A DNA stretch of 61,646 nucleotides from positions 1 through 61,646 of the forward strand of contig MHWB01000010.1 of NCBI GenBank assembly GCA_001823925.1, in the 5' to 3' direction. The notes under the pieces are model-generated. The model did no database searches. It saw only the letters and a list, made by a program, of their open reading frames with translations, and was not told the origin of the DNA. Below are positions 1-60,257 of this stretch, in pieces (within the stretch, counting starts at the first letter, position 1; each line of letters begins with the position of its first letter). This DNA is from Candidatus Zambryskibacteria bacterium RIFCSPLOWO2_01_FULL_39_39 (GTDB lineage Bacteria > Patescibacteriota > Minisyncoccia > Phycocordibacterales > WO2-35-19). A program made the translations under genes and the position numbers.

Positions 1-86
1 CGCTTTTTTAATTTGGGTTAATGTTCGTTTCTGCATATTATTTTTGTCCAAAACCCTTATTTTGCTTAGGTTCAAACTTGGACATC

Positions 87-9585: not shown

Positions 9586-10734
9586 ATGAAAATACTTGGT
9601 ATAGAGACAAGCTGTGACGAGACGGCTATAAGCATAGTAGAAGCAGAAGGGGTGCTAGAAAACCTTGATTTTAAAATACTTGGGAGCGCCATAAATAGCC
9701 AAGTAAAACTGCACGCAGAGTACGGTGGGGTGGTGCCAAATTTGGCCAAACGAGAACATTTGAAAAATTTACCACTTGTTTTAAGGCAAGCTTTTAAGGA
9801 AGCAAATTTTTCTCTAGATACTGATTATCCCAAGATAGATACGATAGCCGTCACGGTGGGGCCTGGGCTTGAACCAGCCCTTTGGACTGGTATAGCTTTT
9901 GCAGAAGAGCTGGGTAAAAAATGGAATATACCAGTAATCGGAACCAATCATATGGAGGGACACATCACATCGGTCTTATTCAAGGCCGATGAAAATTTGA
10001 AATCAGAAATATTAAATCCTAAAATAAAGTTTCCAGCAATCGCATTACTTATTTCCGGAGGTCATACAGAACTCGTATTTATGAAAAGCTGGGCGGAAAA
10101 AGAAAAAATTGGAGAGACTTTGGATGACGCCGTAGGCGAAGCGTTTGATAAAGTCGCCAGAATGCTAGGTCTCCCCTATCCCGGTGGACCGGAGATCTCT
10201 AGATTAGCAGAGGAGGCCAGAATCCAGAATTTAGAATCTAAAATCAAATTTCCTAGACCCATGATTCATTCCAAAGATTTTAACTTTTCTTTCTCTGGTC
10301 TGAAAACCGCAGTTTTGTATTATTTGAGAAGTCTGACCTCACCCCCCAGCCCCCTCCCCTTGTCAAGGGGAGGGGGAGAGGAGAGAACACAGTTCTCTCC
10401 TGGGGGTGAGGTCATTACCCCAGAGATTAAGTTAACCGTTGCCCGAGAATTTGAAGACTCCGTCATAGAAGTGCTTTTATCAAAAACAAAGAGGGCAATC
10501 AATGAGTATCTACCCAAAACTTTGATTATTGGCGGAGGAGTAATAGCAAATAAAGCTTTGAGAGAAAATTTTTTGAAGTTAAAAGAAAATTATCCAGAAA
10601 TGGAAGTTCTCATACCAGAAAAATCTTTGACTAGCGACAACGCAACCATGATAGCCGCCGCGGGATATATTGAATATTTGAGAGGAGATAGCAAAAGAAA
10701 ACTAAAAGCAGACGGTAATTTAAATATTAGTTAG
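9586..10734 (+). CDS. tsaD: tRNA N6-adenosine threonylcarbamoyltransferase TsaD (Kae1/Gcp)
   Basis: ILGIETSCDETA N-terminus, HMEGH metal site, FSFSGLKT, and GGGV..N near the C-terminus. Confidence 0.95.
   Translation: MKILGIETSCDETAISIVEAEGVLENLDFKILGSAINSQVKLHAEYGGVVPNLAKREHLKNLPLVLRQAFKEANFSLDTDYPKIDTIAVTVGPGLEPALWTGIAFAEELGKKWNIPVIGTNHMEGHITSVLFKADENLKSEILNPKIKFPAIALLISGGHTELVFMKSWAEKEKIGETLDDAVGEAFDKVARMLGLPYPGGPEISRLAEEARIQNLESKIKFPRPMIHSKDFNFSFSGLKTAVLYYLRSLTSPPSPLPLSRGGGEERTQFSPGGEVITPEIKLTVAREFEDSVIEVLLSKTKRAINEYLPKTLIIGGGVIANKALRENFLKLKENYPEMEVLIPEKSLTSDNATMIAAAGYIEYLRGDSKRKLKADGNLNIS
10334..10414. repeat. 81-bp G+C-rich nested palindromic element inserted in frame in tsaD
   Basis: A 13-bp outer inverted repeat encloses two internal hairpins. 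The length equals 27 codons. Confidence 0.8.
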
Positions 10735-16773: not shown

Positions 16774-16849
16774 TGGTGCTGGGAGGCAGATTTGCACTGC
16801 CGACCCTTCCCTCTTCAGGGGAATGCTCTACTAACTGAGCTATCCCAGC
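16774..16849 (-). tRNA. tRNA-Phe (anticodon GAA)
   Basis: GCTGGGA acceptor, anticodon arm TTCCC-CTGAAGA-GGGAA, encoded CCA. Confidence 0.9.
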
Positions 16850-16866
16850 AAATATGTAATTTTCAA

Positions 16867-17013
16867 AATCGAACTGCCGACCCATGTCACAGGTCTTTTT
16901 CTGCTGAAAAAGCCCGCGACCCCGCCTCGCACCGCCGTGCTCTGGCCTTGCGCTCGGGTCCCATCCCGAGCTCACTCTTCAGGGGAATGCTCTGCTAACT
17001 GAGCTATCCCAGC
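16867..17013 (-). pseudogene. tRNA-Phe pseudogene interrupted by a ~91-nt G+C-rich structured insert
   Basis: The first 39 nt match tRNA-Phe at 38/39 positions up to the anticodon loop. The insert follows (16884-16974), then GGGTCGGCAGT. The T-arm 3' half and acceptor 3' strand are missing. Confidence 0.65.
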
Positions 17014-17032
17014 AAACATTAGATTTTATACA

Positions 17033-19128: not shown

Positions 19129-19190
19129 TATTTTAAAAATTATTGATAATACTTGGTCGTATTATATCACAAAATATAGTCTTTGCATTC

Positions 19191-19222
19191 AAATAAAAAA
19201 GGGGCGGCTTTATGGGCCGCCC
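19191..19222 (-). terminator. intrinsic terminator
   Basis: Minus strand reads GGGCGGC-CCATAAA-GCCGCCC followed by CTTTTTTATTT. Confidence 0.75.
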
Positions 19223-19232
19223 ACCTCGCTCG

Positions 19233-19448
19233 TCAGGCGAGTAACTGAAGGAATCTCCCCAACTCCAAAGGTGGTGGTGTTGGGGCGTGTTGGAGCCGTT
19301 CAAAACCCCTCTCGAAATTCCGTTGCCCCCTGCGATCGGGGGTATCGTCCAATCCGTCGGGCAGAAGCCCATTCGAGGTGATAAGGGTTGTTGCACACCT
19401 CTCGCAATTTATCCTCGACCTCCCGGAACAATGTTTACAGTCGTTCAT
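19233..19448 (-). CDS. small Cys4 zinc-ribbon protein (71 aa)
   Basis: Strong SD AAGGAGAAAGAG before the ATG. CKHC...CERC motif. G+C-rich, with a terminator immediately downstream. Confidence 0.6.
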   Translation of the reverse strand: MNDCKHCSGRSRINCERCATTLITSNGLLPDGLDDTPDRRGQRNFERGFERLQHAPTPPPLELGRFLQLLA

Positions 19449-19544
19449 CTCTTTCTCCTTGTCTCCTTGAGAACTACGTCAGCCCAAACAGGGCTGATCT
19501 GTAATTTATAGTACTACTATTCCCATATTATGTCCAACTAGGCA

Positions 19545-19662
19545 AATAAAAAGACCGCTCGCCACCATTGTAAGGCTTTGAGCGGTCTCGGTTGCAGGTC
19601 CCGGTGACGAGATCATGCCTTTTTTCGGCATGATATTTATTCCCCGCCCACCAGAAACCATT
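19545..19662 (-). ncRNA. candidate small transcript (unknown class)
   Basis: Extended -10 TGCTATAAT (19669-19677, minus). Internal hairpin ATCATGCC/GGCATGAT. Canonical terminator GACCGCTC...GAGCGGTC-TTTTTATTT. Confidence 0.35.
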
Positions 19663-19689
19663 TTCAGTATTATAGCATATTTATAGAAA

Positions 19690-19981
19690 AAGATCGTCGG
19701 CTGGTGTGAGGGTCTGGAAAGCCAGAACCATCCTTTTGCACCCCACACCAGCCATTCGTGCTATAACTCCCGCGCTCCAAGCCGTCGGACAAACCATCAC
19801 ATGCCACTCTGGGAACTTGCCCCAAAGGAAGGTCCGAGGTAAATGAAGTGAGCGGCGGGATCGCACGTTTTGCCCCCAGAGAGCCTCTCCGCTATCGAGG
19901 AGACTCTATCCAACGCTAACATAGTTATACAAATCGAGCTAATTGCCGACTCATACCACCGTTCGCGAAGCGGGGGGTTCT
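19690..19981 (-). ncRNA. candidate ~290-nt G+C-rich structured transcript (unknown class)
   Basis: It lies downstream of the consensus promoter at 19989-20016 and ends at a 10-bp stem GGCTGGTGTG/CACACCAGCC plus a T-run. No convincing ORF. Confidence 0.3.
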
Positions 19982-19988
19982 GTATATA

Positions 19989-20016
19989 AGTATAGCATAC
20001 CCATTAATTTTGTCAA
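19989..20016 (-). promoter_or_regulatory. near-consensus sigma70-type promoter
   Basis: Minus strand reads TTGACA, 16 nt, TATACT. Confidence 0.6.
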
Positions 20017-20114
20017 GTAAAATTTCATTTTGTAAGTGGATATACCAAAAAATAGCTCCGTTGAGCCATTTTTAGGAAAAGCCGTAAAAGTGGTTTTGCG
20101 GCTTTTTATTGTTT

Positions 20115-36406: not shown

Positions 36407-36647
36407 GATTTGTAATACAAGTTTACATAATAAAACCAAAATGTCAATCTGACTTTACATTAATAACTTCTAATAAAATCATCTCTCCAGAAAATCTTCG
36501 GATCGAACCTCTATCTCCACGACAAAAAAGTCCAAGAAAACCCTTCTCTTCCATACGCGGCACTTCGCGCCGCGCTCCTCCGCCTTCGCAATTCTGCTTC
36601 GGACGGACAAGAAAATTTCTCACCTTTTCAAACAAGTTTTATTCGGG

Positions 36648-36718
36648 CTGCCAGACTTGGATTCGAACCAAGATACCGAGATTCAGAGTCTCGGGTCCTA
36701 CCATTAGACGATCTGGCA
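36648..36718 (-). tRNA. tRNA-Gln (anticodon CUG)
   Basis: TGCCAGA acceptor, anticodon arm CGAGA-CTCTGAA-TCTCG, T-loop GGTTCGAATCC. Confidence 0.88.
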
Positions 36719-36788
36719 ATAGTTAAAAAGTAACAGAAAAATGGTACTAAGTAAAATAAAACAAAAAGCCCGCAGAGAAGTGCGGGAC

Positions 36789-55916: not shown

Positions 55917-55967
55917 CTTTTTTTCTTCTTCTCCCTCTCTTGTTGTAAGAGAGGGGTTAGGGGTGAG

Positions 55968-56267
55968 TTATAAAATTTTCTTAACCTTAATAAAACCTCT
56001 CTCTGTCTCTGGAGCTTCGGCAAGCAATTCTTTTGTATAAGCTCCAGATTCATTTGGATTTTCGTCTTCTCGCATTACATTAAGAACCCCACCCTGACCC
56101 TCCCCTTGATCAGGGGAGGGAAAACCCACATTCCCTACTACAGACTTGATTTGCCCCACGTAACCCAAAATAGAGTCCACCTCTTTTGCTAGACCCTCCA
56201 ACTCCGAATCTTCTATTTCTATCCTCGCCAAATCCGCCAACTTTTTTATATCATCCTTAGAAATCAT
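55968..56267 (-). CDS. gatC: Glu/Asp-tRNA amidotransferase subunit C
   Basis: Size, LA.LARIE N-terminus, LRED-like motif; located immediately upstream of gatA. Confidence 0.88.
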   Translation of the reverse strand: MISKDDIKKLADLARIEIEDSELEGLAKEVDSILGYVGQIKSVVGNVGFPSPDQGEGQGGVLNVMREDENPNESGAYTKELLAEAPETERGFIKVKKIL

Positions 56268-57574: not shown

Positions 57575-59723
<2,149 letters not shown>

Positions 59724-59725
<2 letters not shown>

Positions 59726-60257
59726 AGTAGCTTACCTCAATACCTCTCTCTAACCTCCTCGGATTAGATACGTCACAAGTGTTATAACCACGAGATTTTA
59801 TATAAGTCCAAAGCCTTGCGCCAACATAATACTTTCTCACTGTTACTATGGCGCAATGCGGTACAGAATTAGATCCCTGATTCATTACAAAACCAAAAAA
59901 GCTTGTTTGGTTGGCATCCCCCCCACCCCCTATACGAGTAAGTGTTGTTGTTCCACTTATCGTATCATTTGCAACAAGGGAAGATCCTCCACAACTTATT
60001 GGAGAACCGGATGTAGAAGTAGCAAAAGAATCAAATTTTGAATCCCAATATAATGCACATTCTATTCCACTATCCGCTGCATAAAAAGCAAACTGAGAGT
60101 CTCTGCCGGAAGTCGCAAACTGACTACCTTTTATGGCAATGTTTACTACCGCATAACTGATAACAAGAAGTATAGCCATTATTGTGACAGCAATAAACAA
60201 AGTCATCCCTTTATTTCTTTCAAACTTTTTACTTTTTACTTGTAACTTTTTAATCAT
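59724..60257 (-). CDS. PilX-like minor pseudopilin
   Basis: Basic leader followed by G-MTLFIAVTIMAILLV hydrophobic helix; part of the pilin operon. Confidence 0.6.

What the first reader, a model, noticed from the sequence alone, without database searches (positions are those of the whole stretch)
10334..10414. 81-bp nested palindromic G+C-rich element inserted in frame inside tsaD
Seen: an 81-bp (27-codon) G+C-rich block interrupts otherwise A+T-rich tsaD coding sequence. A 13-bp outer inverted repeat, TGACCTCACCCCC (10334-10346) / GGGGGTGAGGTCA (10402-10414), encloses two internal hairpins. These are CCCCCTCCCC-TTGTCAA-GGGGAGGGGG and GGAGAGAAC-ACA-GTTCTCTCC. The block encodes LTSPPSPLPLSRGGGEERTQFSPGGEV, between the conserved FSFSGLKT block and the AR.FE block. 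From memory of E. coli and Bacillus TsaD, no such segment exists there. Inference: this is a small mobile palindromic element that tolerates or selects in-frame insertion, as Rickettsia palindromic elements do. I am not aware of this being described for CPR-like genomes.
Basis: partly seen in the sequence, partly recalled or inferred. Interest (0 to 1): 0.75.

Follow-up and report, generated by a model that had tools for sequence, protein, structure and literature searches.

The report
Palindromic repeat inserted inside tsaD
An 81-base G+C-rich hairpin-forming repeat sits in frame in a surface loop of an essential tRNA-modification gene of a tiny groundwater bacterium. It belongs to a repeat family found in about fifteen bacterial phyla, whose longer members carry a DUF559 endonuclease gene.

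Summary
Bases 10334-10414 form an 81-bp, 64% G+C nested palindrome, exactly 27 codons, inside tsaD, which is 39% G+C elsewhere.

It is a secondary insertion. About half of the 120 closest TsaD orthologues have a short A+T-rich loop at this site, and solved TsaD structures lack the 27 residues. The structure model places them in a disordered loop between two helices.

It is not unique. A covariance model finds related units at two more loci in the window: one in frame in gatC with a second in the gatC-gatA spacer, and a doublet upstream of ligA. Sister genomes carry further copies.

The core unit is a C-rich prefix, a 2-3 nt linker and a GC hairpin. It recurs in more than 120 genomes of roughly 15 phyla and in 68 viral contigs, often in frame in real genes.

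In other phyla, DUF559 (Vsr-like endonuclease) genes are flanked by these units in two fixed arrangements. One arrangement lies in frame within leuS and ileS. The tsaD element looks like that arrangement without the ORF.

The element is not specific to the Candidate Phyla Radiation (CPR). The mobilising enzyme is inferred, not shown.

The parts
10334..10414 (+). The 81-bp nested palindromic element, a 'doublet' in frame in tsaD (27 codons, residues 250-276)
10334..10346 (+). Left outer arm TGACCTCACCCCC. It contains the family prefix CCTCA followed by a C5 run.
10402..10414 (+). Right outer arm GGGGGTGAGGTCA, the perfect complement of the left arm
10337..10378 (+). Canonical family unit: prefix, then CAG, then hairpin 1. 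It is the best match to covariance model R1 (48.7 bits, E 1.5e-9).
10350..10376 (+). Hairpin 1: CCCCCTCCCC-TTGTCAA-GGGGAGGGGG
10380..10400 (+). Hairpin 2: GGAGAGAAC-ACA-GTTCTCTCC. It is not a canonical reverse unit. In L003 and L124 it is shortened symmetrically to AGAGAAC-(A/G)AAA-GTTCTCT.
9586..10734 (+). Host gene tsaD (382 aa, PF00814)
59626..59726 (+). Second element in the window. It is a 101-bp doublet with 15/15 outer arms TAATAACGCCCCCTA and a unit at 59629-59667 (44.6 bits). It is intergenic, between the stop of ORF 59724..60257(-) and the ATG (59623) of ligA. It belongs to subfamily TAAC[GT]/TCTTA, also seen in Bacteroidales and in a viral contig.
56085..56120 (+). Unit AACCCCACCC-TGA-CCCTCCCC-TTGATCA-GGGGAGGG. 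It lies in frame inside gatC (ORF 55968..56267, minus strand) and is read there as FPSPDQGEGQGGVL. Its stem and loop are of the same type as tsaD hairpin 1.
55931..55968 (-). Diverged unit ACTCACCCC-TAA-CCCCTCTCTT-ACAAC-AAGAGAGGGAG (23.3 bits, E 1e-3) in the gatC-gatA spacer. Its prefix overlaps the gatC stop codon.

Best explanation
The 81-bp block is a non-coding 'doublet' member of a dispersed family of G+C-rich palindromic repeats. The building block is a unit of about 40 nt: a C-rich prefix (CCTCA-CCCCC), a 2-3-nt linker (often YAG), and a GC hairpin (CCCCCTC..-loop-..GAGGGGG). Two inverted ends pair through the prefix and its complement.

Shown:
- The block was added secondarily to a surface loop of TsaD in one lineage of CPR bacteria whose nearest named relatives are Candidatus Zambryskibacteria.
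- It adds exactly 27 codons and removes no host residues.
- It keeps the one stop-free frame.

Inferred:
- It is transcribed and translated through as a disordered Pro/Ser/Gly-rich loop.
- Selection, rather than the insertion mechanism, explains the frame. An essential gene keeps only copies that are a multiple of three and have an open frame. The intergenic copy is 101 bp.

Shown in other phyla: the same ends bracket a DUF559 (PF04480, Vsr/PD-(D/E)XK-like) endonuclease ORF, either in frame inside leuS or ileS or as stand-alone genes.

Inferred: the tsaD element is the ORF-less counterpart of the first arrangement, as a MITE is to an insertion sequence. The family is spread by a nuclease acting on the hairpin ends, either by transposition without target duplication or by break-induced copying into empty alleles. 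DUF559 is the leading candidate for that nuclease.
For: Secondary insertion:
- Empty and filled alleles occur among 120 orthologues: 62 empty, 21 with the GC unit, 37 with other inserts.
- A crude neighbour-joining tree needs about 17 gains or losses of the GC unit.
- There are 27 extra residues relative to 6nak.
- With the insert removed, the loop (RS|ITPEIKLTV) is as long as empty alleles (RD KKEINKLAV).
- The insert is a disordered coil in a model with pLDDT 89.

Family membership:
- R1 hits in the window at 10337, 59629 and 55931, plus the gatC hairpin.
- Extra copies in sister CPR loci, including a doublet in frame in a cysteine-desulfurase-like gene, L127 12074-12167.
- More than 120 genome loci from about 15 phyla and 68 viral stretches.
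- The prefix CCTCA and the inner stem were not part of my search pattern, yet they are conserved. Stem pairs 21-29 and 22-28 show 16-17 double changes among 37 sequences with 99.4% pairing.

Constraint or recent spread:
- Element DNA is 82-92% identical between the window, L003 and L124. The rest of tsaD is 71-74% identical.

Read-through in frame:
- All 40 tsaD loci recovered by tblastn are continuous ORFs.
- Units lie in frame in leuS, ileS, priA, a trmE-like gene and an mnmA-like gene in other phyla.

DUF559 link:
- All 9 DUF559 segments in 0.9 Mb of motif loci lie 22-85 nt from a unit, with Pfam E values of 1e-33 to 2e-36.
- All 3 DUF559 genes chosen without regard to the motif also have adjacent units.
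- There are two fixed architectures. [fwd]-ORF-[rev] occurs in 5 host-gene inserts. [rev]-ORF-[fwd] occurs in 6 stand-alone genes.
Against: - No DUF559 gene was found in the window or in 0.9 Mb of related CPR loci. The only hit is one weak Vsr-like ORF without units. The enzyme acting in this genome is therefore unknown.
- No transposition or homing event has been observed.
- All 21 GC-unit insertions in TsaD are at one site, although other loops of the protein accept other repeats. This fits site-specific homing or a single old insertion with many losses better than random transposition. The neighbour-joining tree is too crude to decide.
- The right half of the tsaD element (hairpin 2) is not a canonical reverse unit.
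- Translation of the insert is inferred only from the open frame.
Confidence: 0.72

Rival explanations
1. REP/REPIN-type element mobilised by a Y1 (HUH) RAYT transposase. On this view the doublet is a REPIN, and DUF559 is only a frequent neighbour.
For: - The architecture matches: short GC hairpins, inverted doublets, and no detectable target duplication.
- REPs inside genes are documented (PMC3733652).
- A PF01797 Y1_Tnp gene lies 5 kb from tsaD and 1.4 kb from a unit in sister locus L003.
Against: - The unit has no GTAG or CGTC tag. Its linker is YAG, TAA, AA, TT, GG or GA.
- tblastn finds no Y1 gene in the window.
- The L003 Y1 gene is not flanked by units.
- In every case where a gene is bracketed by units, that gene is DUF559.
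Confidence: 0.12
2. RNA-level element. The hairpin-rich block would be removed from, or bypassed in, the tsaD mRNA (intron-like excision or ribosome hopping). Alternatively it would act as a cis-regulatory or stabilising mRNA structure kept by selection.
For: - The fold is very stable (-67.7 kcal/mol, z = -6.9).
- The outer stem brings the flanking codons together.
- Hairpin 2 and a variant of hairpin 1 change symmetrically between relatives.
- The element is more conserved than its host gene.
Against: - Every coding copy examined has a length that is a multiple of three and is stop-free in the host frame. This holds for tsaD in the window, L003, L124 and L125, and for gatC, the L127 desulfurase-like gene, leuS and ileS. 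Excision or bypass would not require that.
- No Rfam family matches.
- The same units occur on either strand relative to genes and in intergenic DNA.
Confidence: 0.08
3. Lineage-specific functional loop of TsaD. The palindromic character would be incidental, or secondary to coding for a Pro/Gly linker.
For: - The insert is conserved, with small changes, in several relatives (P0001-P0005).
- It lies in a loop that varies in length across TsaD proteins.
Against: - The same nucleotide unit occurs in unrelated genes, in intergenic DNA, in phage contigs and in other phyla.
- Empty alleles are interleaved among close orthologues.
- The site also hosts unrelated palindromic elements in L127 and L132.
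Confidence: 0.04

Closest known systems
Rickettsia palindromic elements (RPE; Ogata et al. 2000, from my own knowledge; summarised in PMC3733652)
   Same: Both are short palindromic interspersed repeats found intergenically and in frame inside essential genes. They sit in loops compatible with protein function and show presence/absence among orthologues.
   Different: RPEs are A+T-rich, 100-150 bp, confined to Rickettsia, end in CGTC, and have no associated ORF. This family is G+C-rich and 70-120 bp. It shares a unit of about 40 nt across roughly 15 phyla and is linked to DUF559.
REP / REPIN elements with RAYT transposases (REPtrons)
   Same: Both have a GC-rich hairpin unit and inverted doublets that form a long hairpin. 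In both, a single associated gene is bracketed by inverted units. Both have no target duplication and occur occasionally inside genes.
   Different: The GTAG or CGTC tag is absent here. The bracketed gene is a PD-(D/E)XK DUF559 endonuclease, not a Y1 HUH transposase. REP sequences are usually specific to a genus, whereas this unit is nearly identical across phyla and in phage contigs.
MITEs (non-autonomous derivatives of insertion sequences)
   Same: Both have terminal inverted repeats and no ORF. In both, short forms coexist with longer ORF-bearing forms that share the same ends.
   Different: No target-site duplication is apparent here. The ORF-bearing relatives encode no recognisable transposase.
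Vsr-like (EDxHD) homing endonucleases in introns, inteins and fractured genes (Dassa 2009, PMC2677866; I-Bth0305I, PMC3239194)
   Same: Both involve a Vsr-fold nuclease carried inside conserved housekeeping genes at a fixed site, with a patchy distribution among orthologues.
   Different: Those nucleases ride in self-splicing introns or inteins. Here DUF559 is simply read through in frame between two Pro/Gly-rich hairpin-encoded linkers, and no splicing element was seen. Homing activity of DUF559 is untested.

Membership tests
Rickettsia palindromic elements (RPE) | Palindromic interspersed repeat present in several copies per genome | tested here: met
   At least 3 loci and 5 units in 61.6 kb. 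Further copies occur in sister genomes.
Rickettsia palindromic elements (RPE) | In-frame insertion in functional genes at surface loops | tested here: met
   In tsaD the insert is 27 codons and is modelled as a disordered coil. The gatC linker also carries a unit.
Rickettsia palindromic elements (RPE) | Sequence homology to the RPE-1..8 consensus; CGTC end; Rickettsia host | tested here: not met
   The element has no CGTC end and its host is a CPR bacterium. It is 64% G+C; RPEs are A+T-rich, from my own knowledge.
REP/REPIN-RAYT | 20-40-nt GC-rich imperfect palindrome; inverted doublets | tested here: met
REP/REPIN-RAYT | Conserved GTAG or CGTC tetranucleotide at one end | tested here: not met
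   The linker is YAG, TAA, AA, TT, GG or GA.
REP/REPIN-RAYT | Associated Y1 (PF01797) RAYT gene flanked by the repeats | tested here: not met
   There is none in the window. The L003 Y1 gene is not flanked by units. The flanked genes are DUF559. The whole source genome was not available.
MITE | Terminal inverted repeats, no ORF, small size | tested here: met
   13/13 arms, 81 bp
MITE | Target-site duplication, and ends shared with a transposase-encoding insertion sequence | tested here: not met
   The net insertion equals the palindrome exactly and there are no direct repeats at the flanks. The longer relatives encode DUF559, not a transposase.
Homing-endonuclease element (intron or intein borne) | Fixed site in a conserved gene with patchy occupancy among orthologues | tested here: met
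   The tsaD loop. The same leuS site is occupied in three Bacteroidota.
Homing-endonuclease element (intron or intein borne) | Self-splicing intron or intein that restores the host product | tested here: inconclusive
   Rfam found no group I or II intron in the window or in 17 motif loci, but the leuS/ileS insert loci were not among those scanned. Pfam finds only DUF559 and MTES_1575 in the inserts. The reading frame is continuous through them. No dedicated Hint/intein test was run.
Homing-endonuclease element (intron or intein borne) | The nuclease cleaves the empty allele | not testable with these tools
   This needs biochemistry.
Any Rfam RNA family | Match at the gathering score | tested here: not met

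The most novel reading that the evidence does not exclude
The prefix-linker-hairpin units would be the cis-acting ends of an unrecognised class of selfish element that spans many bacterial phyla and is also carried by phages. The driver would be DUF559 (Vsr-fold) endonucleases. These elements would survive inside essential genes (leuS, ileS, tsaD, gatC, priA) without any intron or intein, because their G+C-rich ends encode stop-free Pro/Ser/Gly linkers. The prefix is a pyrimidine mirror repeat of the 5' arm of the hairpin stem, and it covaries with the stem in mirror register. The ends may therefore adopt an intramolecular triplex (H-DNA-like) structure that the nuclease recognises.
Probability: 0.25. 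Interest if true: 0.85.

Novelty: new variant of a known kind. Interest (0 to 1): 0.66.

Why it matters
In-frame palindromic repeats are textbook only for Rickettsia. This finding shows the phenomenon in CPR bacteria, whose genomes are very small. Here at least two translation-related genes in one 61-kb window carry such inserts.

More broadly, it ties a nearly invariant 40-nt DNA unit found across about 15 phyla and in phages to DUF559. DUF559 is a very common domain of unknown function, whose only solved relative (3hrl) has no assigned activity.

That gives DUF559 a testable role, namely acting on these hairpin ends. It also explains many odd Pro/Gly-rich segments and misannotated DUF559 fusions in databases, for example DUF559-only proteins named as PurL, HisD or MetH by one source. 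Finally, it offers a model of how a nuclease gene can ride inside essential genes without splicing.

Tried and rejected
- Exact or near-exact search for the outer arm in the window found only the two arms themselves. A strict arm-to-arm search over 0.9 Mb of CPR loci found copies only in tsaD. This wrongly suggested a single-site element until the covariance model found diverged units.
- Rfam gave nothing at gathering or permissive thresholds.
- The peptide search with the insert failed. The 27-aa query was too short, and a 57-aa concatenated query found no candidates in the word index.
- Literature searches by sequence strings and by concept found nothing on this family.
- The MAFFT alignment of variable-length units (A2) pushed all gaps to the 3' end and was unusable. 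I rebuilt the alignment from 38-nt units only (A3).
- I considered that the YAG linker is a Vsr-type CTAG/CCAG site. I dropped this because diverged units have TAA, AA, TT, GG or GA there.
- I considered Y1_Tnp in L003 as the mobiliser. It has no flanking units.
- DUF559 was sought in the window and the CPR loci by tblastn and by an HMM built from 120 sequences. Both found none, apart from one weak Vsr-like ORF without units.
- An assembly artefact is rejected. The identical protein is on record in 33 blocks of the collection, including independent NCBI and ENA assemblies.
- The long-read contig L275 has a fragmented leuS, probably from indel errors. I did not use it as evidence about reading frame.

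Full report
**1. The observation**

The sequence is exactly as described. TGACCTCACCCCC (10334-10346) and GGGGGTGAGGTCA (10402-10414) are perfect complements. They enclose two hairpins: CCCCCTCCCC-TTGTCAA-GGGGAGGGGG (10350-10376) and GGAGAGAAC-ACA-GTTCTCTCC (10380-10400).

The block is 81 nt and 64% G+C. The gene around it is otherwise 39% G+C and the window 38%. As one strand the block folds to -67.7 kcal/mol, against -41.0 +/- 3.9 for shuffles (z = -6.9).

The block forms codons 250-276 of ORF 9586..10734. That ORF is TsaD (PF00814, E 6e-79). Only one frame per strand is open through the element, because the arms contain TGA.

The window is part of MHVV01000003.1 (GCA_001823825.1). The same protein is found in an independent ENA assembly. 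The nearest named relatives are Candidatus Zambryskibacteria, a CPR lineage.

**2. It is an insertion, and it sits in a loop**

I classified the segment between FSFSGLKT and AREFED in the 120 closest orthologues (53-74% identity).
- 62 are empty, with 17-22 residues after GLKT, for example AVLYYLRDKKEINKLAV.
- 21 carry peptides derived from the GC unit.
- 37 carry other inserts.

At the DNA level the empty loops are 23-35% G+C and unstructured. The filled loops are 43-58% G+C and fold at -0.35 to -0.58 kcal/mol per nucleotide.

With the 27 codons removed, the window's loop (RS|ITPEIKLTV) has the same length as the empty alleles. The net insertion therefore equals the palindrome, and no target duplication is visible.

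T. maritima TsaD (6nak) aligns to residues 1-248 and 285-381. This leaves 36 query residues opposite 9, an excess of 27.

An AlphaFold model built from 69 sequences has pLDDT 89 and pTM 0.87. It places residues 252-278 as coil between helices 237-251 and 279-308. The only stretch below pLDDT 50 is 261-272.

A crude neighbour-joining tree needs about 17 gains or losses of the GC unit. All 40 tsaD loci recovered by tblastn are continuous reading frames.

**3. Other copies**

A second element at 59626-59726 shares CCCCCYAGCCCCCTC...GAGGGGGA and the same nested architecture.

I built covariance model R1 from 37 units taken from other genomes. In the window it finds:
- the tsaD unit (48.7 bits);
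- the unit at 59629 (44.6 bits);
- a third unit at 55931-55968 on the minus strand (23.3 bits, E 1e-3);
- a GC hairpin at 56098-56120.

Reading the minus strand shows that the hairpin at 56098-56120 is part of a unit in frame inside gatC, read as ...GFPSPDQGEGQGGVLNVMRED... Its stem and loop match tsaD hairpin 1. The unit at 55931 fills the gatC-gatA spacer.

In GatC relatives that linker is variable. Two relatives carry other peptides of the unit type. Two near-identical relatives diverge right after the G run.

Sister CPR loci hold further units:
- L003 17873 and 2975;
- a doublet at L124 12327;
- a doublet in frame in a cysteine-desulfurase-like gene, L127 12074-12167.

The tsaD site itself also hosts a different long-hairpin element in L127 and L132, and a diverged subfamily in L125.

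Between the window, L003 and L124 the element is 82-92% identical, while the rest of tsaD is 71-74% identical.

**4. The family is found in many phyla**

I scanned one genome per species with CCCCCYAGCCCCCTCN{4,20}GAGGGGG. The loci come from:
- Chloroflexota, Bacteroidota, Cyanobacteria;
- alpha-, beta- and gamma-Proteobacteria;
- Desulfobacterota, Myxococcota, Planctomycetota, Armatimonadota, Nitrospirota;
- Spirochaetota, Ignavibacteriota, Gemmatimonadota;
- Riflebacteria, Bdellovibrionota, and Patescibacteria (Peribacteria and Gracilibacteria).

In very G+C-rich genomes some chance matches are expected, by my own estimate some tens. However, features outside the search pattern are also conserved:
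- the prefix CCTCA;
- the extension of the stem;
- a trailing AG.

The two stem pairs not fixed by the pattern show 16-17 double changes among 37 sequences, with 99.4% pairing.

Many loci show the full doublet ending in CTGGGGGTGAGG. Fifty-six of 134 hits lie in ORFs of at least 200 aa. These include clear leuS, ileS, priA, trmE-like and mnmA-like genes.

Sixty-eight viral contig stretches carry the unit. Some carry 6-11 copies in a single orientation. No Rfam family matches.

**5. The DUF559 link**

In three Bacteroidota leuS genes (same site) and one ileS gene, the reading frame runs in this order:
- host sequence;
- forward unit;
- DUF559 domain;
- reverse unit;
- host sequence.

The domain is PF04480, with E values of 1e-33 to 2e-36.

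All nine DUF559 segments present in the 0.9 Mb of motif loci lie 22-85 nt from a unit. Three DUF559 genes chosen from a protein search without regard to the motif also have adjacent units.

R1 shows two fixed arrangements:
- [forward]-ORF-[reverse], in five host-gene inserts;
- [reverse]-ORF-[forward], in six stand-alone genes.

The tsaD doublet has the first arrangement without the ORF. The only solved relative of DUF559 is 3hrl, an 'endonuclease-like protein' with no assigned function.

I found no DUF559 in the window or in the related CPR loci. For this genome the link is therefore an inference from other phyla.

**6. Mechanism and rivals**

Shown:
- secondary insertion;
- family membership;
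- in-frame carriage;
- loop position.

Inferred:
- translation of the insert;
- selection as the cause of the open frame;
- origin as an ORF-less derivative;
- DUF559 as the nuclease.

Fixed-site, patchy occupancy fits homing: all 21 GC-unit inserts in TsaD are at one loop, although other loops accept other repeats. The many intergenic copies in Hymenobacter, Oscillochloris and Herpetosiphon fit transposition. I cannot separate the two.

The rivals are scored in their own sections: REP/RAYT, RNA-level removal or function, and a functional lineage-specific loop.

**7. Comparison and novelty**

The element works like Rickettsia RPEs and like intragenic REPs (PMC3733652). It fails the sequence and tag criteria of both families. 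Its associated gene is not a Y1 transposase.

Vsr-fold homing endonucleases are known, but they ride in introns, inteins or fractured genes (PMC2677866, PMC3239194).

Eight literature searches found no description of this unit or of a mobile role for DUF559. The library is incomplete, so prior description elsewhere cannot be excluded. I rate the finding a new variant of a known kind.

Noticed in passing
units from L004-L123 and L204-L271; window 10337-10378: The 5 nt before the first C5 run covary with the stem in mirror register about the linker. Mutual information is 0.83, 0.61 and 0.57 bit on the diagonal and lower off it; pairs are T/T, C/C and A/T. Prefix plus C5 is a pyrimidine mirror repeat of the 5' stem arm. 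That is the layout of an intramolecular pyrimidine-motif triplex. Caveats: there are few subfamilies, and position P-1 is mostly A.
   Followed up: partly
window 16855-17025 (minus strand): A second, truncated tRNA-Phe copy lies next to the real one (16774-16849). Its 5' half is intact up to the anticodon loop. A block of about 95 nt at 78% G+C follows, then GGGTCGGCAGTTCGATT with no closing T-arm or acceptor stem. ARAGORN and Rfam do not call it.
   Followed up: partly
window 19129-20114: This is an intergenic stretch of about 1 kb between the LemA-like and GroEL genes. It has several 62-65% G+C patches (19200-19381, 19845-19911) in a 38% G+C genome. Rfam gives no match even at E 0.01. It may be an unannotated structured RNA.
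   Followed up: partly
window 36530-36615: A 65% G+C block lies immediately beside tRNA-Gln (36645-36719). Its nature is unknown.
   Followed up: no
L127 1729-1887; L132 3799-3993: The same tsaD loop hosts a different long-hairpin element (arms ..AAGCAAC..TCTCGAG..), read as ..SERDWRESEEIFQQKN.. or ..SPPSHASRAPK... In L132 it sits next to a half GC unit. The loop is therefore a hot spot for at least two repeat families.
   Followed up: partly
TsaD orthologues P0002-P0120 (alignment): Other TsaD loops in this clade carry recurrent repeat-derived peptides: ISNFQFSIFNEFS.. after core position 75-78 and NSKFEIRNSKQIQNS after position 133. The window's own TsaD has extra residues near 133-147 with low pLDDT.
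   Followed up: no
L219, L214, L262, L204 (viral contigs, about 61% G+C): These contigs carry 3-6 single units per stretch of 10-12 kb. All are on one strand, every 0.4-4 kb, and nearly identical (..CCTCACCCCCTAGCCCCCTCTCCCAGGGAGGAGAGGGGG..). They could be punctuation between phage genes, or a vehicle for spread between hosts.
   Followed up: no
L006 59-246; L272 1876-2444: Units also occur in tandem arrays. L006 (a Bacteroidales MAG) has three copies with a 78-nt period. L272 has three copies with a 264-nt period directly downstream of a DUF559 gene.
   Followed up: no
P0241, P0242 (GatC relatives); P0393 (TsaD variant): Proteins more than 90% identical to the window's GatC diverge or truncate right after the unit's G run. 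A TsaD variant changes PLPLSRGGGE to PPPPSTGGGG, that is on both stem arms. The homopolymer runs may be prone to slippage, or these may be assembly errors.
   Followed up: no
L003 4420-5076: An IS200-like Y1_Tnp (PF01797) gene lies in the sister genome, 5 kb upstream of tsaD. It is not flanked by units.
   Followed up: partly
proteins P0161, P0167, P0208, P0235, P0196: One source names these DUF559-only proteins of 126-159 aa as PurL, HisD, MetH or a DNA methyltransferase. P0126, P0136, P0206 and P0238 are DUF559 fused to pieces of other enzymes. This suggests that DUF559 cassettes sit inside many more host genes than leuS and ileS.
   Followed up: no
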